Shown: positions 31,014 through 47,000 of the stretch, piece by piece
How the letters are laid out: each line of letters begins with the position of its first letter
Position numbering within the stretch: the stretch's first letter is position 1
NCBI RefSeq assembly: GCF_009914755.1
Contig: NC_060944.1
Length of the DNA: 64,000 nucleotides
Reading direction: 5' to 3' (one strand)
Source of the DNA: the human T2T-CHM13v2.0 reference genome, Homo sapiens
Notes under the pieces: model-generated
Database searches by the model: none
What the model saw: the letters and a program-made list of their open reading frames with translations, nothing else
Told to the model about the DNA's origin: nothing
Made by a program: the position numbers and the translations under genes

Positions 31014-33286
31014 TCAGCGGGTACAAGAAGAGGAAGCGGCTCGCTTAGGATGGAGGCAGCTGCATTGAAGGTGAGTGATGCCATCGGGGTTGCCAGGGGT
31101 TGAGGACCCATCTGGGCGCTCGGTTGAGGCACTTAGAGTGCAGGACGAGCTCCCAGGCCGAAGCTGCACCTGCACCTGCGGGGGCGGGTGGGGCGATGAG
31201 CAGACCCTCTCCATTTCCCGCCTCGGATGTTCCCATGGGAAGTCACAGCCCTAGTTACAGCCCCATCCCTACCCCCATTTTCCAGGTAGGGTCCTACAGA
31301 CCCGAGGGTGCTAGAAGTGTCAGAGGCAGAGCTGGGACTGGAGGGAGTGTGGGAAGGGCTGTCTGGAGGGGACTGGAGGGCGTGCTTCTTGGCTGGAGTG
31401 GAAGGAGTGACTCACGTCCGCCATGATGAGCTGCTCCTTGGGGTGCTGTGTGGGGCCCGGGTCCTCCTCACCGAAGCACAGACAGATCTGGTACTTTGGG
31501 TCCGGTGACCATCCTGCAGGTGGGCACACAATTATACGACACTGAGACTATAGGGACTGGGCAAGAACTAGGCAACCCACTGGTGCCCATCTTGTGCTCA
31601 TTTCCCATGCCCAAGTCCTGTAAGCCCACATCCCATTGTGTGCCTGTACCCTAGGCCCACTTCCACGTTCCTATGCCTGTCCCATGTCCCACATCTGTGC
31701 CCACTTCCAGGTCTTATGTCTCTTCCTTGGCCCCTATGCCCACCCCATGCCTTTATGCCCAACCCATGCCCACTGCCACTCACCTATACCTATCTCGTGC
31801 TTGGTGCACCTCACATCCACCTTATGCCCTAAGCCAACACATGTACCGAAGCCCTATTCTTATGCTGCACACCCAACGCCTCAAGCCTTCTCCATGCCAG
31901 CACCCCATATACGCCTGTATCCGTATATGTGCCCCCAGCCCTCCTGGTGCCTGTATTCTTTCCCATCCCTGGTGCTTTTGTGCCATATTCTTTGTGTCAA
32001 TGTCCACTTCATGCCCAGCACCCTTAGGCCCATCCCCCTGGGCCTGCATTTAATGTGCCCACTCTCCTCTGTTCATGTTCCTTTGCCCACCGCGTCCTTA
32101 TGCCCCCGTTCCCACGCCACTCTGTTCCACTCCTCCAGCCGTCCTACCGCCTGGAGGAAGCCGCGTGTGTTCAGCAGGTGGCAGGTGCGCCTGCGCTCCA
32201 CCTTGTTGGGCTGCGCCAGTACAGGCCCTGGCACAGGCGCTTGGTGAACACGCCCTCCGGAGCCACCCAGAGCTGCACACCGCGCTCCAGGTGAGGCGGC
32301 AGGCCCTGCAACACGTGGGCGCTGGGCAGTGGGTCGGGGAAGCGAACCTGCTGCAACGTGAGGTGGCGGCCCCAGCAGGCGCTCGGCGGCCGCCCGCGGA
32401 CTCAGACGACAGCGCTGGGCTGTGCGCCCGGTGGCTTCGCGCACCAGCGCTGCGGAGAGAAGAGCCACACGTGCAGCCAGCAGGCTGTGGGGCGAGAGAG
32501 GGTGCACGGGCTGGACGTGGGCGGCGCTAGCTCCCCTCGCCTTCTTACCCTCCCCTTCAAACTCTGCCGGACCCAGAGGTCGTCCCAGCCTCTACCTCGG
32601 AAATTTTGGGTGCTCTCTCCCTATCAGTGATGATAAGAATTCTAGTAATAATAGTAGTAAACAATAGCTTCCAGTATAAACGAACTGATAGTCGAGCTCT
32701 GCGGTTAAAAGCTGGGGCCATCTGTACAGTGAGGGCATGACCCTCCCAGCAAATCTTCTGGGATTCTAGGAGCTTCCTCCCAGCAAAGATTTTGATGCAG
32801 GTAGAAATAACCATAACAGCGACAATAACAACAACCTAGCAGCGTCTCATGAGAAACCAGCAATCCTGCTCAGTGGTTAGGGTTGTGGGCTCTGCAGCCA
32901 GGCCCTCGGATTCTAGTCTATCACTGCCACTTAGGAGCTTTCCCAGGGTTACCAGCTGTGTGACCTCAGGCAAGGTTCTTAACCTCTGTGTCCTGGTTTG
33001 GGCATATGTAAAATGGGAATAATAGCAGCATCTGGGGGCTGTGGGGAGCTTGGAAGGGTGCCTGGCATAAACTAAGCCCTCAGGAAATGTTGACTGTTGT
33101 GGCTATTATTGGGAGCCTGGGCTGGGTGCTTTGGGTGGGAGAGAGAGGTGGGCTGGCCCCACCCCGCGGCCGTCCCCAGTTCAGCACACTGGTCGGAGGG
33201 GAGGGGATTTCGATTCCTTACCAGGTTGCTGAAGTCATCGGAGGGCATTGGGCACCAGAGGTTTTTGAGGTCCTATGTCTGGCACC
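31014..33286 (-). CDS. DUSP15: Alternative 3' coding exons of the long (295 aa) DUSP15 isoform: 33222-33286, 32348-32484, 31416-31513, 31014-31175
   Basis: Each internal exon is flanked by AG/GT. 426 nt (MTEG start to exon 6) + 65 + 137 + 98 + 162 = 888 nt, an open frame ending ...HPKRAASSSCTR*, matching my recollection of the 295-aa DUSP15 sequence. Confidence 0.8.
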
Positions 33287-44011: not shown

Positions 44012-47000
44012 TCACTTGCCGCCCTTGCGGGACAGACACCGGGGGAGGCAAGAGAAAGTCTGCTTGACGCGCGCCAGCAGCGGCAGCGGCCGGTGGGCTT
44101 CCCGGGGCGTGCGCGGCACCAGGCGCTGCAGGGTTCCCTCGGAGGCTGCTGAGTGCGGCCCGGCGGAGGAGGCCGAGGTCGCGGAGCCCTGCCGGCAGCG
44201 CTTGCACAGCGGCAGCAGCGCGCGCAACTCCTCCTCGTCGCGGAAGGGGCTCTCGCCGAAGCGCTCCTCCAGCTGCCGGCGAAGCTGGGGTGGGCGGGTG
44301 AGGTGGGCGGGGTCAAGGCCGGCCGCGGGGCGGGGTCAAGGCAGCCGGCCCCGCCCCCACCCTCCCGACCTTCGCCCTTCTCCGAGCGTCCCACACCTCG
44401 CTGAGCCCCTCCCTTCCTGAGCGTCTTCTTTGCCTCCCTTCTCCGGGGTTTCCATCCCCTCACTGAGTCCCTCTTCCCTTCTAGGAGGCCCCTCCCTCTC
44501 CCTGACCCCTCTTCCCCCTTTGACACGCCAGCTTCCAGACCTGCTAAAGTGACCCCCAGGCGCCCAGCGGGGATCACTCCTCCCGCTTTGCACTTCTGGG
44601 TAACTCCTCCCACTTTGCACCTCTGTGCTCACAACCCCATTCCCACAGATTTCTTCCTTGCCCGACTCTTTCCCAACGCCGTGCTGCAGATGAGCCTCTG
44701 GGTACCGCCCTCAACCTGCTGAGAGCCCTCCCCCTCTCATCCTTTGTTCCCAGGGAGGCTTAGTTCCTGACATTTCTACGTAGCATCTGCCCGAGAGGTA
44801 TAAGAGGGAAACTGCTGTGGTCTCATCAAGGACACAGGGATGGAGTAGGACATGGACAATTCTCCCCGATGGGGTCAAACACTCAAATCCTTCAGGTTCC
44901 AGCCAGGTAGGGCAGGCAGTGGGGAGGGCTGGAAGACCTGGTCAAATGGAAGGGCCCGCACTGATCTAAAGGCATTCAAATTCTAAATTGAAAAAGAAAA
45001 CACCTGGCTGTCTAACAAAATACACCTAGGAGGTGGATTAGCTCAAAGGCCATGAGTTTGAGACCCTAGAAAAATCCGGGTCTGAGGCACAGGCTAAAAA
45101 TGTTCCAATCAGTGATCAGTTCGAGTGGGAAGAAGGATCTCCCACCCCTGGCCCAACCCAGCCCTTGACCCCATCCCTACCTTCTGGGAACTGGCCCAGC
45201 CAAACTCTTCAAGCTGCTGCCTAAAGCCTGGGTTGGGGTTGGCGATGGGCCTGGTGGCCTTGATGGCTTCAAGCACGTCCCGCCAGCCTAGCCCCGTCAC
45301 AGTCATCACATACGCTGTCACAATCGTGGTGCTGCGAGAGATGCCTGCAAAGCTGGGATCCCCAACAACCCCTCAGGCTTCAAGTAAGATCCAATGTCCT
45401 CCATGCCCCCAGGCACCCCACCCTGCTTCAACTCCCCCACCCTTGCCTCCTGAGCTCCAACCATAAGGGACCTGTCAGGACTTGCCATCCCACCTCCAGG
45501 CCTTTGCCATGCTGTTCCCTCTGTCTAGAGCATCCCCTGGGTTCTCCCACATCAAAAGCCTGAGTGAAACACCATTCATTCAGTCAATAAATATGTCCTG
45601 AGCATCTGTTCTTTTTCAGGCACTGGGGATGTAGCGGGTATAAAACAGGCATGGTCTTTGCTGTCCTGGAGCTTACAGTATGGCTGGGGGGGGGGGACAG
45701 ACGTTGATCAGATAATCAATTCCAGGTGGTGATAATAGCTTTGAGGATGAGTCTGGGGGCTAGGAGATCCACATAGGAAGAGGTATTAATCTATAGGTGG
45801 GGTGGGGTTAGGGAAGGGGTTCCCAAGGAATAGATATCAATGAAATTTGAAAGATGAATAAGGGTTAGTCAGGAACCTTCTGGGCAGTGTGTACAAAGAC
45901 CATGAGGCATAAGCCTCGTAGATTTGGAGGATGGGGAGGAGGTTAGTACAGCTGGAAAGGGGAAGGAGGGAGAGGGTGGGAAATGAGGCTTGGGAAACCG
46001 GCCTCCTTGCTGGGCCTCCAGCAGAGCCAGCTTGAGCCTGGATAGGATGGGCCTTCAGTGAGAAGTTAAGGAATGAATGACATCAACTGAGCGAGGGGCA
46101 CCTGGGAAGACCCAGAATTCCTGTCTCCCAGCTCGGGGTTCCCCACTGCCCTGCACCATCACCTCCAAGGCCTGGAGGGGAGGAGGGAGGCCCAGAACTA
46201 CTGGAGGGTGATGAGCTACCTCCATGACCTCACCTATCCCTCCCAACAGTCCCATCAGGTCAGCTTTCTTTTCCGCATTTTACAGATGAGGACATTGAGT
46301 CTCAGAGAGAAACAGCTACTTGGCTATGGCCACACAGCTCATAAGGAATAGAGTCCCGGGTTGGCCTCTCTCCAGTGAATGGTGGGCCCTCAGGCACTGT
46401 GACAGGCTGGAGAAGATCCCTCACAGGTCCAACCTTCCCACAGGGGGAGTGTGTGTTCAGCAGAGGGCACAGCCACTTCCTTCCTCCCCCACCTTATCCC
46501 CCTCCGCTTAACTCACCAGTGCACAAGGCAGTTCCCCCCATTAAGGCGGCAGCAGTGGATGAAGTTGATACATTCTTTGAAGTGCTTTTTGCTAGAGGAG
46601 AAAGCAATAGGGTAGGGAGCACTGCAGGGCAGACCTCTCAGGAGTTGTTCCGCCCCCACCCCAATTACAGGATAGCAAGGGACATAGAGCCCTGGGGTCC
46701 CCAGGTCAGCCAGCACATGCAGTGAATATGGGCCAGTACTTAGTATGAGCTGGAGGTGTGTTTGTGTGAAGCAAGAATGGTGGCATTTCAGGCAGTGAGA
46801 GAGACCAGTCAGGACAAATCTCACCATCTAGGCAGGAGCACTCCTCCTGTGGACCCTGTTTTCATGTTGGGTTTATTGTGGCCTTTCAGAGAAATGGGAG
46901 GGAGGAAACACAGGGGTCCCACTCCTCTGGGGTCTGCAATCAGAGCACCTGGGCACAATGATGGGCAGCAGCAGGCTGGGAGCAAGATTCCCAAGGGGCA

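What the first reader, a model, noticed from the sequence alone, without database searches (positions are those of the whole stretch)
31014..45352. The long DUSP15 isoform is a phosphatase-IRF pseudogene chimera
Seen: DUSP15 exon 6 (donor at 45181) can skip its normal last exon and splice about 12 kb downstream to 33286-33222, 32484-32348, 31513-31416 and 31175-31014, giving an uninterrupted 888-nt ORF (295 aa with the MTEG start) ending GARHRTSK...PKYQICLCFGEEDPGPTQHPKEQLIMADV...SSSCTR*. These four exons are the 3' exons of the IRF pseudogene. Two tail segments (AALVREATGRTAQRCRLSP and PKYQICLCFGEE...LIMADV) are in the ancestral IAD frame and the rest are off-frame. From recall, this 295-aa sequence is a curated DUSP15 isoform whose tail is treated as featureless. 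Inference: a lineage-specific read-through has recruited dead-gene exons, making either a new fusion tail (IAD fragments on a DUSP22-like phosphatase) or annotation noise mistaken for a principal isoform.
Basis: partly seen in the sequence, partly recalled or inferred. Interest (0 to 1): 0.88.

Follow-up and report, generated by a model that had tools for sequence, protein, structure and literature searches.

The report
DUSP15 isoform built on dead IRF10
A catalogued long form of the human phosphatase DUSP15 gets its last 153 amino acids by splicing into the remains of a dead immune gene (IRF10) that lies just downstream, and this most likely makes a functionless tail, not a new protein domain.

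Summary
Joining the coding parts of RefSeq NM_001320479.1 gives the stated 888-nt, 295-aa ORF with canonical splice sites.

The four tail exons lie inside the unitary pseudogene of IRF10. This is a ten-kb, intron-bearing remnant on the same strand, 2.7 kb beyond DUSP15's own terminal exon, and RefSeq does not annotate it.

Evidence for the origin of the tail:
- The tail matches intact mammalian IRF10 proteins (E 8e-11 database-wide; 3e-20 and 3e-15 pairwise).
- Against Pfam's IAD model it scores only 16 bits, below the 27-bit cut-off, which explains the "featureless" label.
- About 64-74 of the 153 tail residues are read in the ancestral frame.
- The IAD core is spliced out.

Evidence on function:
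- The tail diverges about ten times faster among primates than the phosphatase domain.
- The normal exon-7 tail is conserved as far as birds.
- Merged DUSP15-IRF10 gene models in a cattle hybrid, musk deer and a bird suggest the read-through is not human-specific.

Verdict: the chimera is real. It is most likely a neutral by-product of read-through. It matters mainly for annotation.

The parts
45181..45352 (-). DUSP15 exon 6, the last exon shared by all coding isoforms. Its donor (45181|45180) joins either exon 7 (896-nt intron) or the IRF10-remnant exons (11.7-11.9 kb intron).
43686..44284 (-). DUSP15's own terminal exon 7 (CDS 44284-44012), used by the RefSeq select 235-aa isoform. Its 90-aa tail is 43% identical over 82 aa to a bird DUSP15 (E 2e-16).
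41058..41069 (.). The only exact ISRE-type core in the window. It lies about 90 nt upstream of the remnant's first coding piece and next to a RefSeq 'enhancer' (41149-41248). It may be a relic IRF10 promoter element.
   Evidence: weak alone (23 of 100 shuffles give at least one match in the window)
40751..40969 (-). IRF10 remnant E1: N-terminus and first half of the DNA-binding domain. It has frame jumps near 40918 and 40889 and an in-frame stop at 40930-40928 relative to long-N-terminus orthologues. No DUSP15 model uses it.
   Evidence: (PF00605, 48.8 bits)
35440..35590 (-). IRF10 remnant E2: second half of the DNA-binding domain, with two frame jumps (about 35533 and about 35465). No human DUSP15 model uses it. 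The cattle-hybrid fusion model joins DUSP15 exon 6 to the equivalent exon.
34373..34467 (-). IRF10 remnant E3/4 (linker), with a frame jump near 34400. Part of the expected sequence was not found.
33397..33507 (-). IRF10 remnant E5 (linker). It is the optional exon of Gnomon DUSP15 models (332/335-aa forms). It is read in the ancestral frame until a frame jump near 33420.
33222..33286 (-). Tail exon A = IRF10 remnant E6. DUSP15 reads all 21 whole codons out of the ancestral frame (0 of 21 in 5 of 5 comparisons).
32348..32484 (-). Tail exon B = the 5' 137 nt of the large IAD exon E7. The acceptor coincides with the start of the ancestral exon. The donor (32348|32347) is internal to E7. 35 of 45 whole codons (32456-32352, residues 174-208) are in the ancestral frame.
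32151..32347 (-). The rest of ancestral exon E7 (IAD core, Pfam profile 43-132). It is spliced out of the long isoform as intron. Frame jumps lie at 32351 and near 32210.
   Evidence: (41.5 bits)
31416..31513 (-). Tail exon C = the 3' part of ancestral exon E8. The acceptor is internal, just 3' of an in-frame TAA at 31534-31532. The donor is at the ancestral position. 29-30 of 32 codons (31502-31416, residues 214-242) are in the ancestral frame.
   Evidence: (PF10401 E 0.003)
30247..31175 (-). Tail exon D = the last IRF10 exon E9 plus 3'UTR. The CDS is 31175-31014. The start of the exon is read off-frame (the conserved E9 helix is in another frame). 0-10 codons by alignment, or up to 19 by tblastn, are in the ancestral frame (31124/31097-31068). 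An AATAAA lies at 30271-30266, 19 nt before the annotated transcript end.

Best explanation
Mechanism. Human IRF10 is a long-dead unitary pseudogene that lies 2.7 kb downstream of DUSP15 on the same strand. When transcription runs past DUSP15's own terminal exon 7, the exon 6 donor pairs with surviving acceptors of the IRF10 remnant (E6, or E5 in the model isoforms). Splicing then continues through five inherited IRF10 splice sites and two sites internal to old exons. The transcript ends at the remnant's AATAAA.

Product. Translation gives a complete DSPc phosphatase domain (residues 1-142) followed by 153 residues. These are a patchwork of ancestral-frame IRF10 peptide (about 64-74 residues) and frame-shifted peptide. 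The IAD core (IRF10 residues about 270-348) is spliced out, so no IAD fold can form.

Interpretation. The tail is most likely a neutral by-product of read-through into a decaying neighbour and not a selected domain. The conserved, principal C-terminus is the one encoded by exon 7.

Shown: the anatomy, the homology, the frames and the fast divergence. Inferred: the read-through mechanism, the neutrality, the low abundance and the disorder of the tail.
For: Structure and ORF.

IRF domains on the minus strand at 40882-40727 and 32377-32183.

Tail against the 5.8-billion-protein database. Of 10 hits among 163 scored candidates, 7 are primate DUSP15 forms (3 human, 4 other primates) and 3 are IRF proteins. 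The best IRF hit is cow 'IRF4 isoform X1' at E 8.3e-11.

Pairwise against colugo IRF10: E 3e-20 and 3e-15, collinear, skipping IRF10 residues 270-348.

The remnant is spread over eight collinear exon pieces from 40969 to about 31045, with at least 11 frame jumps and in-frame stops.

Orthology to IRF10:
- Identity over 210 columns is 65% to lemur/colugo IRF10, 43% to IRF4, 39% to IRF8 and 28% to IRF9.
- The remnant is sister to the marmoset and titi remnants (96/90 support), inside placental IRF10.
- Literature places IRF10 between DUSP15 and FOXS1 (PMC1634998, passages) and reports a 210-aa segment in human (PMC2885996, passages).

Frames: exon B 35/45 codons and exon C 29-30/32 in 5 of 5 comparisons; exon A 0/21.

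No sign of constraint on the tail. Human compared with gibbon, snub-nosed monkey, mangabey and capuchin gives a phosphatase domain of 131, 127, 132 and 129 identical of 133. The tail gives 115/143, 101/117, 82/113 and 74/123, with 10-40 unaligned residues.

Pfam IAD on the whole isoform reaches only 16.2 bits. The PDB IRF4 IAD matches at E 0.017 over 35 residues.

Exon-7 tail conserved to a bird.

The AATAAA sits 19 nt before the transcript end.
Against: - The frame is open for 153 codons, which happens in only 2.5% of shuffles.
- The transcript is a curated RefSeq, so some cDNA support exists.
- The stop lies in the last exon, so the mRNA should escape nonsense-mediated decay.
- A TCGA-based paper lists a DUSP15 alternate-terminator event with PSI 0.053 in normal colon and 0.365 in tumours (PMC6197784, Table 1 passage). 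I cannot tell which terminal exon it refers to. If it is exon 7, the distal terminator would dominate in normal colon, which would argue against 'minor by-product'.
- No RNA-seq, Ribo-seq, proteomic or population data could be consulted.
- The primate comparison rests on gene models (UniRef entries), not on genomes. Their gaps may partly be modelling artefacts.
Confidence: 0.78

Rival explanations
1. The read-through is old, not human- or primate-specific. On this view DUSP15 and IRF10 formed a conjoined transcription unit while IRF10 was still alive, possibly yielding in-frame phosphatase-IRF fusion proteins, and the human long isoform is its fossil. This is compatible with the best explanation and changes only the age of the read-through.
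For: 3 of the 120 listed relatives of cow IRF10 are named DUSP15 and carry IRF domains:
- P0011, a cattle hybrid, 564 aa. DUSP15 exons 1-6 are joined in frame to the second DNA-binding-domain exon of IRF10.
- P0084, musk deer 'DUSP15 isoform X5'.
- P0114, a bird, 730 aa, with whole DUSP15 plus whole IRF10.

DUSP15 exon 6 ends in phase 0, and human E5 is entered in the ancestral IRF10 frame. An exon 6 to E5 splice would therefore have been in frame in the ancestor. The two genes lie only 2.7 kb apart.
Against: All three are computational gene models. Merging close same-strand neighbours is a common prediction artefact. No transcript evidence could be seen. The remaining 117 of the 120 listed proteins are stand-alone IRF models.
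Confidence: 0.4
2. The tail has been exapted. On this view the hominid lineage gained a new C-terminal module (IAD fragments plus novel peptide) that alters DUSP15's localisation, partners or stability.
For: - The frame is open where only 2.5% of shuffles are.
- Splice sites are canonical and a poly(A) signal is present.
- 64-74 residues of real IRF10 peptide are retained, including the strongly conserved stretch of exon C. In the 16-row alignment, 13 columns are invariant, all of them at or after residue 105 of P0002.
- The MTEG-start form lacks the N-terminal glycine-2 context of the MGNG-start form, so the two proteins could behave differently. That this context is a myristoylation motif is recalled.
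Against: - Divergence among primates is tail-specific and rapid, and 10-40 residues are missing from every non-human model.
- The human frame through exon B depends on a frame jump at 32458-32457. 4 of 6 non-human primate models (gibbon, mangabey, marmoset, titi) read straight across that point, so the ORF appears recent.
- The IAD core is absent.
- The exon-7 tail is the conserved one.
Confidence: 0.08
3. The long isoform is annotation noise. On this view it is a rare or artefactual cDNA that does not exist as a stable mRNA in normal tissue.
For: - RefSeq's select transcript is the 235-aa form, and only 1 of the 5 curated mRNAs uses the distal exons.
- The splice needs an 11.9-kb intron that skips a functional terminal exon and its poly(A) site.
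- The exon B donor is a weak site inside an old exon.
Against: - It is a BestRefSeq record, and 10 Gnomon models share the same junctions.
- Alternate-terminator usage of DUSP15 is measurable in TCGA RNA-seq (which exon is unclear).
- A mouse-lemur IRF10 model uses the same internal E8 acceptor (P0082), so that site is a genuine splice site.
Confidence: 0.1
4. The IRF likeness of the tail is chance or comes from a processed copy of IRF4, so the exons are ordinary DUSP15 exons.
For: Pfam's IAD model is below its cut-off on the isoform itself (16.2 against 27 bits). Exons A, B and D give no Pfam hit in the DUSP15 frame.
Against: - E 8.3e-11 in a search of 5.8 billion proteins, and pairwise E 3e-20 and 3e-15.
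- The pieces are collinear and separated by introns over 10 kb, so this is not a processed copy.
- The remnant is closer to IRF10 than to IRF4/8/9.
Confidence: 0.01

Closest known systems
Conjoined genes / read-through (cis-SAGe) transcripts between same-strand neighbours
   Same: Transcription runs past the upstream gene's terminal exon. The penultimate-exon donor is spliced to internal acceptors of the downstream gene, and the downstream poly(A) site is used (anatomy). The class itself is described in reviews that I saw only as search listings.
   Different: The downstream partner is a dead, unannotated unitary pseudogene. The product is therefore filed as a plain isoform of DUSP15 and not as a read-through locus. 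About half of the added peptide is frame-shifted.
Unitary pseudogene of IRF10 in humans and other mammals
   Same: The position between DUSP15 and FOXS1, the exon order and the domain content match IRF10. Loss of functional IRF10 in humans is in print: PMC1634998, PMC2885996 and PMC12220609 (passages). Li et al., Gene 2023, is cited there, but the paper is not held.
   Different: The papers I could read treat the remnant as absent, as a 210-aa segment or as a 'gene'. None of the passages I saw says that its 3' exons are the coding tail of a DUSP15 isoform.
DUSP22-IRF4 paralogous neighbourhood on chromosome 6
   Same: It has the same tandem, same-strand order of an atypical DUSP followed by an IRF4-group gene. 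Wotton and Shimeld describe it as a paralogon.
   Different: On chromosome 6 the genes are 44 kb apart and IRF4 is alive. On chromosome 20 the gap is 2.7 kb and the IRF gene is dead. RefSeq's gene list has no DUSP22-IRF4 read-through gene.
IRF association domain (IAD1, Pfam PF10401)
   Same: Residues 212-245 of the isoform align to profile positions 137-169, and residues 174-208 align to the IAD N-terminus of intact IRF10.
   Different: Profile positions about 43-132 are absent and the C-terminal helix is read out of frame. The score is below the family cut-off.

Membership tests
IRF association domain (Pfam PF10401), for the 295-aa protein | A match to the family model at or above the curated 27-bit cut-off that covers the domain core | tested here: not met
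   16.2 bits, E 0.0094, residues 212-245 against profile 137-169 only. Intact colugo IRF10 gives 165 bits over profile 3-176.
IRF family gene (genomic remnant) | An IRF DNA-binding domain and an IAD on one strand, in order, above the Pfam cut-offs | tested here: met
   PF00605 47-48.8 bits at 40882-40727; PF10401 39.3-41.5 bits at 32377-32183. Both are on the minus strand and collinear.
IRF10 orthologue | Conserved position between DUSP15 and FOXS1/MYLK2 | tested here: met
   The annotation in the finding and one search give the gene order. PMC1634998 and PMC2885996 (passages) give the same order for IRF10 in other vertebrates.
IRF10 orthologue | Closer to IRF10 of other species than to the paralogues IRF4, IRF8 and IRF9 | tested here: met
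   65% against 43/39/28% over 210 columns; nested within placental 'IRF4-like' proteins, sister to the New World monkey remnants (96/90). The databases call these proteins 'IRF4-like'. Equating them with IRF10 rests on synteny and on the papers, not on a database name.
Unitary pseudogene | Multiple frame-breaking lesions in an intron-bearing copy at the ancestral locus, with no intact copy elsewhere in the genome | tested here: met
   at least 11 frame jumps plus stops at 40930-40928 and 31534-31532; genome-wide domain scans show only IRF1-9, IRF5P1 and this locus among hits over the cut-off. Matches in closed regions are not shown.
Read-through / conjoined transcript | One mature transcript that holds exons of two same-strand neighbours | tested here: met
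   NM_001320479.1 and 10 Gnomon models join DUSP15 exons 1-6 to remnant exons. This rests on the annotation, not on reads.
Read-through / conjoined transcript | Junction support and abundance in RNA data | not testable with these tools
The only indirect evidence is the alternate-terminator entry in PMC6197784, and which exon it refers to is unclear.
Dual-specificity phosphatase (Pfam PF00782) | A complete DSPc domain above the cut-off | tested here: met
   108.7 bits, residues 9-135, profile 1-130 of 133; identical to PDB 1yz4 over the shared 42 residues of P0001.

The most novel reading that the evidence does not exclude
DUSP15 and IRF10 have been a conjoined transcription unit since before mammals and birds split, with phase-compatible junctions able to make phosphatase-IRF fusion proteins. 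After IRF10 died in the anthropoid stem, compensating one-base changes in the hominoid or hominid lineage re-opened a 153-codon frame through its 3' exons. Humans would then translate a partly resurrected IRF10 peptide as a lineage-specific C-terminus of DUSP15, possibly driven as well by a relic interferon-responsive element at 41058-41069.
Probability: 0.08. Interest if true: 0.7.

Novelty: new member of a known kind. Interest (0 to 1): 0.4.

Why it matters
1. Annotation. A curated human protein sequence, which as far as I recall is the UniProt display sequence, carries 153 C-terminal residues that are translated pseudogene. Half of them are frame-shifted. RefSeq lists no IRF10 pseudogene here.

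2. Downstream use. Structure predictions, domain maps, interaction screens and constructs based on the 295-aa form use a tail that is probably meaningless. They also lack the conserved exon-7 tail.

3. Variant interpretation. Variants in 33286-31014 are reported as DUSP15 missense or truncating changes although they lie in a decaying IRF10 remnant.

4. Evolution. The locus is a clean, datable example of a live gene capturing exons of a dead neighbour. The gene died before the split of New World monkeys from catarrhines, and the frame was apparently re-opened later. It also raises the testable idea that DUSP-IRF read-through is old.

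Tried and rejected
Pfam on single tail exons in the DUSP15 frame. Only exon C hits the IAD model (E 0.003). Exons A, B and D give nothing. Pfam alone would therefore have missed most of the homology, and direct comparison with intact IRF10 was needed.

All-against-all blastp of open-frame pieces against the human IRF4, IRF8 and IRF9 loci. 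It worked for four pieces but was swamped by Alu and low-complexity matches, and the output was cut. I replaced it with tblastn and a frame-aware alignment against intact orthologues.

Exon D. The C-terminus of IRF10 is poorly conserved. The alignment placed 10, 0, 6 (spurious, to another part of the protein), 0 and 0 of the 53 codons on the ancestral path with the five orthologues. tblastn suggested 19. I give a range and no firm figure.

The tree rooted on IRF9 puts IRF4+IRF8 next to opossum+swift IRF10 (84/79). IRF10 is then not one clade in that rooting. IRF9 has a very long branch, so I use the tree only to place the human remnant.

Literature. Only two papers hold both IRF10 and DUSP15, and both concern synteny. 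No paper holds DUSP15 together with read-through and pseudogene. None of the 15 listed hits for DUSP15 combined with conjoined, chimeric or readthrough terms contains DUSP15. IRF10 with pseudogenization gives one work. On this basis I say the chimera is not in the searchable library. Nehyba 2002 and Li 2023 are not held and may say more. Supplementary files were not opened.

A DUSP review (PMC13147768, passages) and an exome paper (PMC12119447, passages) say nothing about the tail.

Rejected ideas: a processed pseudogene (introns are present), a duplicate of IRF4 (identity and tree), and chance similarity (E-values).

Full report

The RefSeq table for the window lists 16 DUSP15 mRNAs. One curated record, NM_001320479.1, joins exon 6 (45352-45181, minus strand) to 33286-33222 (A), 32484-32348 (B), 31513-31416 (C) and 31175-30247 (D, CDS to 31014). 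Ten Gnomon models use the same downstream exons, most of them with an extra exon at 33507-33397.

Five mRNAs, including the RefSeq select NM_080611.5, end in exon 7 (44284-43676/43686) and encode 235 aa or shorter forms.

Joining the coding parts of NM_001320479.1 gives 888 nt and 295 aa, with AG/GT at every tail junction. The protein is identical to database entry P0002, named DUSP15 by NCBI and UniRef. The intron from exon 6 to exon A is 11,894 nt, against 896 nt to exon 7.

2. A DEAD IRF GENE LIES UNDER THE TAIL.

Six-frame scans of the whole genome with Pfam models place an IRF DNA-binding domain at window 40882-40727 (47 bits) and an IAD at 32377-32183 (39.3 bits). Both are on the DUSP15 strand and were confirmed on the cut-out pieces (48.8 and 41.5 bits).

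A database search with residues 143-295 of the isoform returned 10 proteins among 163 scored candidates:
- three human DUSP15 forms;
- four primate DUSP15 models;
- a cow protein labelled 'IRF4 isoform X1' (E 8.3e-11);
- two New World monkey 'IRF4-like' fragments.

Searching with the cow protein gave 1362 relatives at E<=1e-20, of which 120 were listed. They include apparently intact 'IRF4-like' proteins of about 405-450 aa in horse/zebra, carnivores, bats, elephant, manatee, colugo, rodents, three strepsirrhine primates, marsupials, turtles and birds.

3. THE GENE IS IRF10.

The locus sits between DUSP15 and FOXS1. Wotton and Shimeld place IRF10 there as part of the DUSP22-IRF4 / DUSP15-IRF10 paralogon (PMC1634998, passages). 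Huang et al. note that IRF-10 is absent in human and mouse but that a segment encoding 210 aa is found at the syntenic place (PMC2885996, passages). A 2025 paper states that humans lack a functional IRF10 and cites a 2023 study of IRF10 pseudogenisation in mammals, which I could not read (PMC12220609, passages).

I took the 210 alignment columns that are filled in the remnant, IRF4 and IRF8. Identity of the remnant over these columns is:
- 65% to mouse-lemur and colugo IRF10;
- 57-64% to the other placental IRF10 proteins;
- 49-50% to opossum and swift;
- 43%, 39% and 28% to human IRF4, IRF8 and IRF9.

In a 15-row maximum-likelihood tree the remnant is sister to the titi and marmoset remnants (96/90), within the placental IRF10 rows. 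IRF4 and IRF8 pair elsewhere (92/99). The rooting on the long IRF9 branch is unreliable, and IRF10 is not one clade in it.

RefSeq's gene list holds IRF1-9 and IRF5P1 but has no entry for this remnant.

4. ANATOMY AND DECAY.

I mapped the remnant with tblastn and a frame-aware local alignment against intact orthologues. Five of the 120 listed proteins were used, chosen by hand for taxonomic spread. Eight collinear pieces were found:
- E1 40969-40751
- E2 35590-35440
- E3/4 34467-34373
- E5 33510-33398
- E6 about 33286-33225
- E7 32497-32151
- E8 31531-31416
- E9 31175 to about 31045

Frame jumps fall near 40918, 40889, 35533, 35465, 34400, 33420, 33264, 32458, 32351, 32210 and 31504. At least two more lie in E9. 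In-frame stops lie at 40930-40928 and at 31534-31532. Positions are good to a few bases.

The pieces are separated by introns, some holding masked repeats. This is therefore a unitary pseudogene and not a processed copy.

The marmoset model P0009 shares the human off-frame end of E5 and the human reading of E6. It reads straight across the human jump at 32351. I infer that the gene died before the platyrrhine-catarrhine split and after the split from strepsirrhines, which keep intact-looking models. I also infer that some lesions are later.

5. HOW THE DUSP15 FRAME RUNS THROUGH THE WRECK.

Exon 6 ends in phase 0.

Exon A (= E6) is read wholly out of the ancestral frame (0 of 21 codons).

The frame jump at 32458-32457 brings the reading back. 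35 of the 45 whole codons of exon B (residues 174-208) are ancestral IRF10 peptide, the N-terminal strands of the IAD.

Exon B ends at a donor inside E7, one base from the jump at 32351. The next 197 nt, which encode the IAD core (Pfam profile 43-132), are removed as intron.

Exon C starts at an acceptor inside E8, 19 nt downstream of an in-frame TAA. After three codons it regains the ancestral frame at the 31504 jump, giving 29-30 of 32 codons (residues 214-242). Its donor and the exon D acceptor are at the ancestral exon boundary. A mouse-lemur IRF10 isoform model (P0082) uses the same internal E8 acceptor, so that site existed in the live gene.

Exon D reads the conserved E9 helix out of frame. 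It may regain the ancestral frame for 10-19 codons (residues 260/269-278), then runs past the position where the ancestral-frame reading stops (about 31045) to 31014.

These counts were the same in 5 of 5 orthologue comparisons for exons A, B and C and variable for D.

In total about 64-74 of the 153 residues are IRF10 peptide.

Pairwise BLASTP of the E5-containing human isoform X5 (P0001) against colugo IRF10 shows two collinear matches, E 3e-20 and 3e-15. They cover IRF10 residues 154-269 and 349-413 and skip 270-348.

6. WHY THE TAIL LOOKS FEATURELESS.

On the whole isoform the Pfam IAD model reaches 16.2 bits against a 27-bit cut-off, over residues 212-245 only. The PDB IRF4 IAD is matched at E 0.017 over 35 residues. 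The precomputed domain list for P0002 holds only phosphatase families.

The decisive evidence is the comparison with IRF10 orthologues.

7. FUNCTION.

The phosphatase domain is complete (108.7 bits).

The tail shows no sign of constraint. The table compares human with the four non-human primate DUSP15 models that carry such a tail.

| Species | Phosphatase domain identical (of 133) | Tail identical / aligned |
|---|---|---|
| Gibbon | 131 | 115/143 |
| Snub-nosed monkey | 127 | 101/117 |
| Mangabey | 132 | 82/113 |
| Capuchin | 129 | 74/123 |

In addition, 10-40 human tail residues have no counterpart in each model.

Four of six non-human primate models (gibbon, mangabey, marmoset, titi) read continuously across the point where the human sequence needs the 32458 frame jump. 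One lacks the stretch and one reads it differently. I infer that the base change that opens the human frame arose after the gibbon split. These are gene models, not genomes.

By contrast the exon-7 tail is 43% identical over 82 residues to a bird DUSP15 (E 2e-16).

An open 153-codon frame is found in 2.5% of composition-matched shuffles. This is not compelling, given the inherited frame and the way isoforms are chosen for annotation.

The stop is in the last exon, and an AATAAA lies 19 nt before the transcript end. The mRNA should therefore be stable if it is made.

The only expression-type evidence I found is a TCGA SpliceSeq table listing a DUSP15 alternate-terminator event ('exon 11') with PSI 0.053 in normal colon and 0.365 in tumours (PMC6197784, passage). 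I cannot tell which terminal exon is meant. If it is exon 7, the distal terminator would dominate in normal colon, and that would weaken my reading.

8. IS THE READ-THROUGH LINEAGE-SPECIFIC?

Probably not, or at least this is not shown. Three of the 120 listed relatives of cow IRF10 are DUSP15-named models with IRF domains:
- a cattle-hybrid protein of 564 aa, in which DUSP15 exons 1-6 continue in frame into the second DNA-binding-domain exon of IRF10;
- a musk-deer 'DUSP15 isoform X5', whose end matches the human Gnomon exon at 28265-28201;
- a bird protein of 730 aa holding all of DUSP15 and all of IRF10.

Exon 6 ends in phase 0, and human E5 is entered in the IRF10 frame. Exon 6 to E5, or exon 6 to E2, would therefore have been in-frame fusions in an ancestor.

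These are predictions, and merged neighbours are a common artefact. The point needs RNA data.

9. COMPARISON WITH WHAT IS KNOWN, AND VERDICT.

The mechanism is that of conjoined or read-through transcripts. The peculiarity is that the downstream partner is an unannotated unitary pseudogene, so the product is filed as an ordinary isoform.

The loss of human IRF10 and its position next to DUSP15 are in print. In the searchable library I found no statement that the DUSP15 long isoform is built from its exons. Two relevant papers are not held.

I rate this a new member of a known kind. The chimeric origin is near certain. The tail is most likely a neutral by-product (about 0.75). Its main value lies in correcting annotation and variant interpretation, with a modest evolutionary point of interest.

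Noticed in passing
window 41058-41069 (with 41149-41248): The only exact ISRE-type core in the 64-kb window lies about 90 nt upstream of the IRF10 remnant's first coding piece, outside masked repeats and next to a RefSeq 'enhancer active region'. It may be a relic interferon-responsive promoter. By chance 23 of 100 shuffles give at least one match somewhere in the window.
   Followed up: partly
window 28201-28265 and 29158-29286: Gnomon model XM_054322971 continues beyond the remnant's poly(A) site to two further exons. The last one overlaps the FOXS1 5' end (28212). A musk-deer 'DUSP15 X5' model (P0084) ends in the equivalent of that exon. This suggests transcription can run from DUSP15 through the remnant up to the FOXS1 promoter.
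   Followed up: partly
whole genome gene list; window 31045-40969: RefSeq (T2T-CHM13) lists IRF1-9 and IRF5P1 but has no gene or pseudogene entry for the chr20 IRF10 remnant. Its 3' exons appear only as DUSP15 exons.
   Followed up: yes
window 31532-31534: An in-frame TAA sits where the first codon of ancestral exon E8 is expected. The acceptor used by DUSP15 (31513) lies just downstream of it, and a mouse-lemur IRF10 model also uses this acceptor.
   Followed up: partly
window 28626-28931: An AC-rich compound tandem array of about 300 nt lies upstream of FOXS1. It produces long spurious Cys/Val-rich ORFs on both strands.
   Followed up: no
window 33801-34391 vs L001:4359-5077 (IRF4 intron): A 279-aa Pro/Ser/Leu-rich open frame in the remnant's E3/4-E5 intron gives weak blastp matches (27-31%, E about 5e-6) to a repetitive stretch in an IRF4 intron. 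This is probably low-complexity similarity and not conserved intronic sequence.
   Followed up: no
G000 chr20:7548625-7548870 (-): A weak sub-threshold IAD-like match (22.6 bits, E 0.128, two stops) lies elsewhere on chromosome 20. It was not examined.
   Followed up: no
window 53186-53197 vs 52927-52947: The curated 295-aa form starts from an alternative first coding exon (MTEG start). It therefore lacks the MGNG-type N-terminus of the select isoform. From recall, that N-terminus is the myristoylation site of DUSP15. A 298-aa Gnomon form combines the MGNG start with the IRF10-derived tail.
   Followed up: partly
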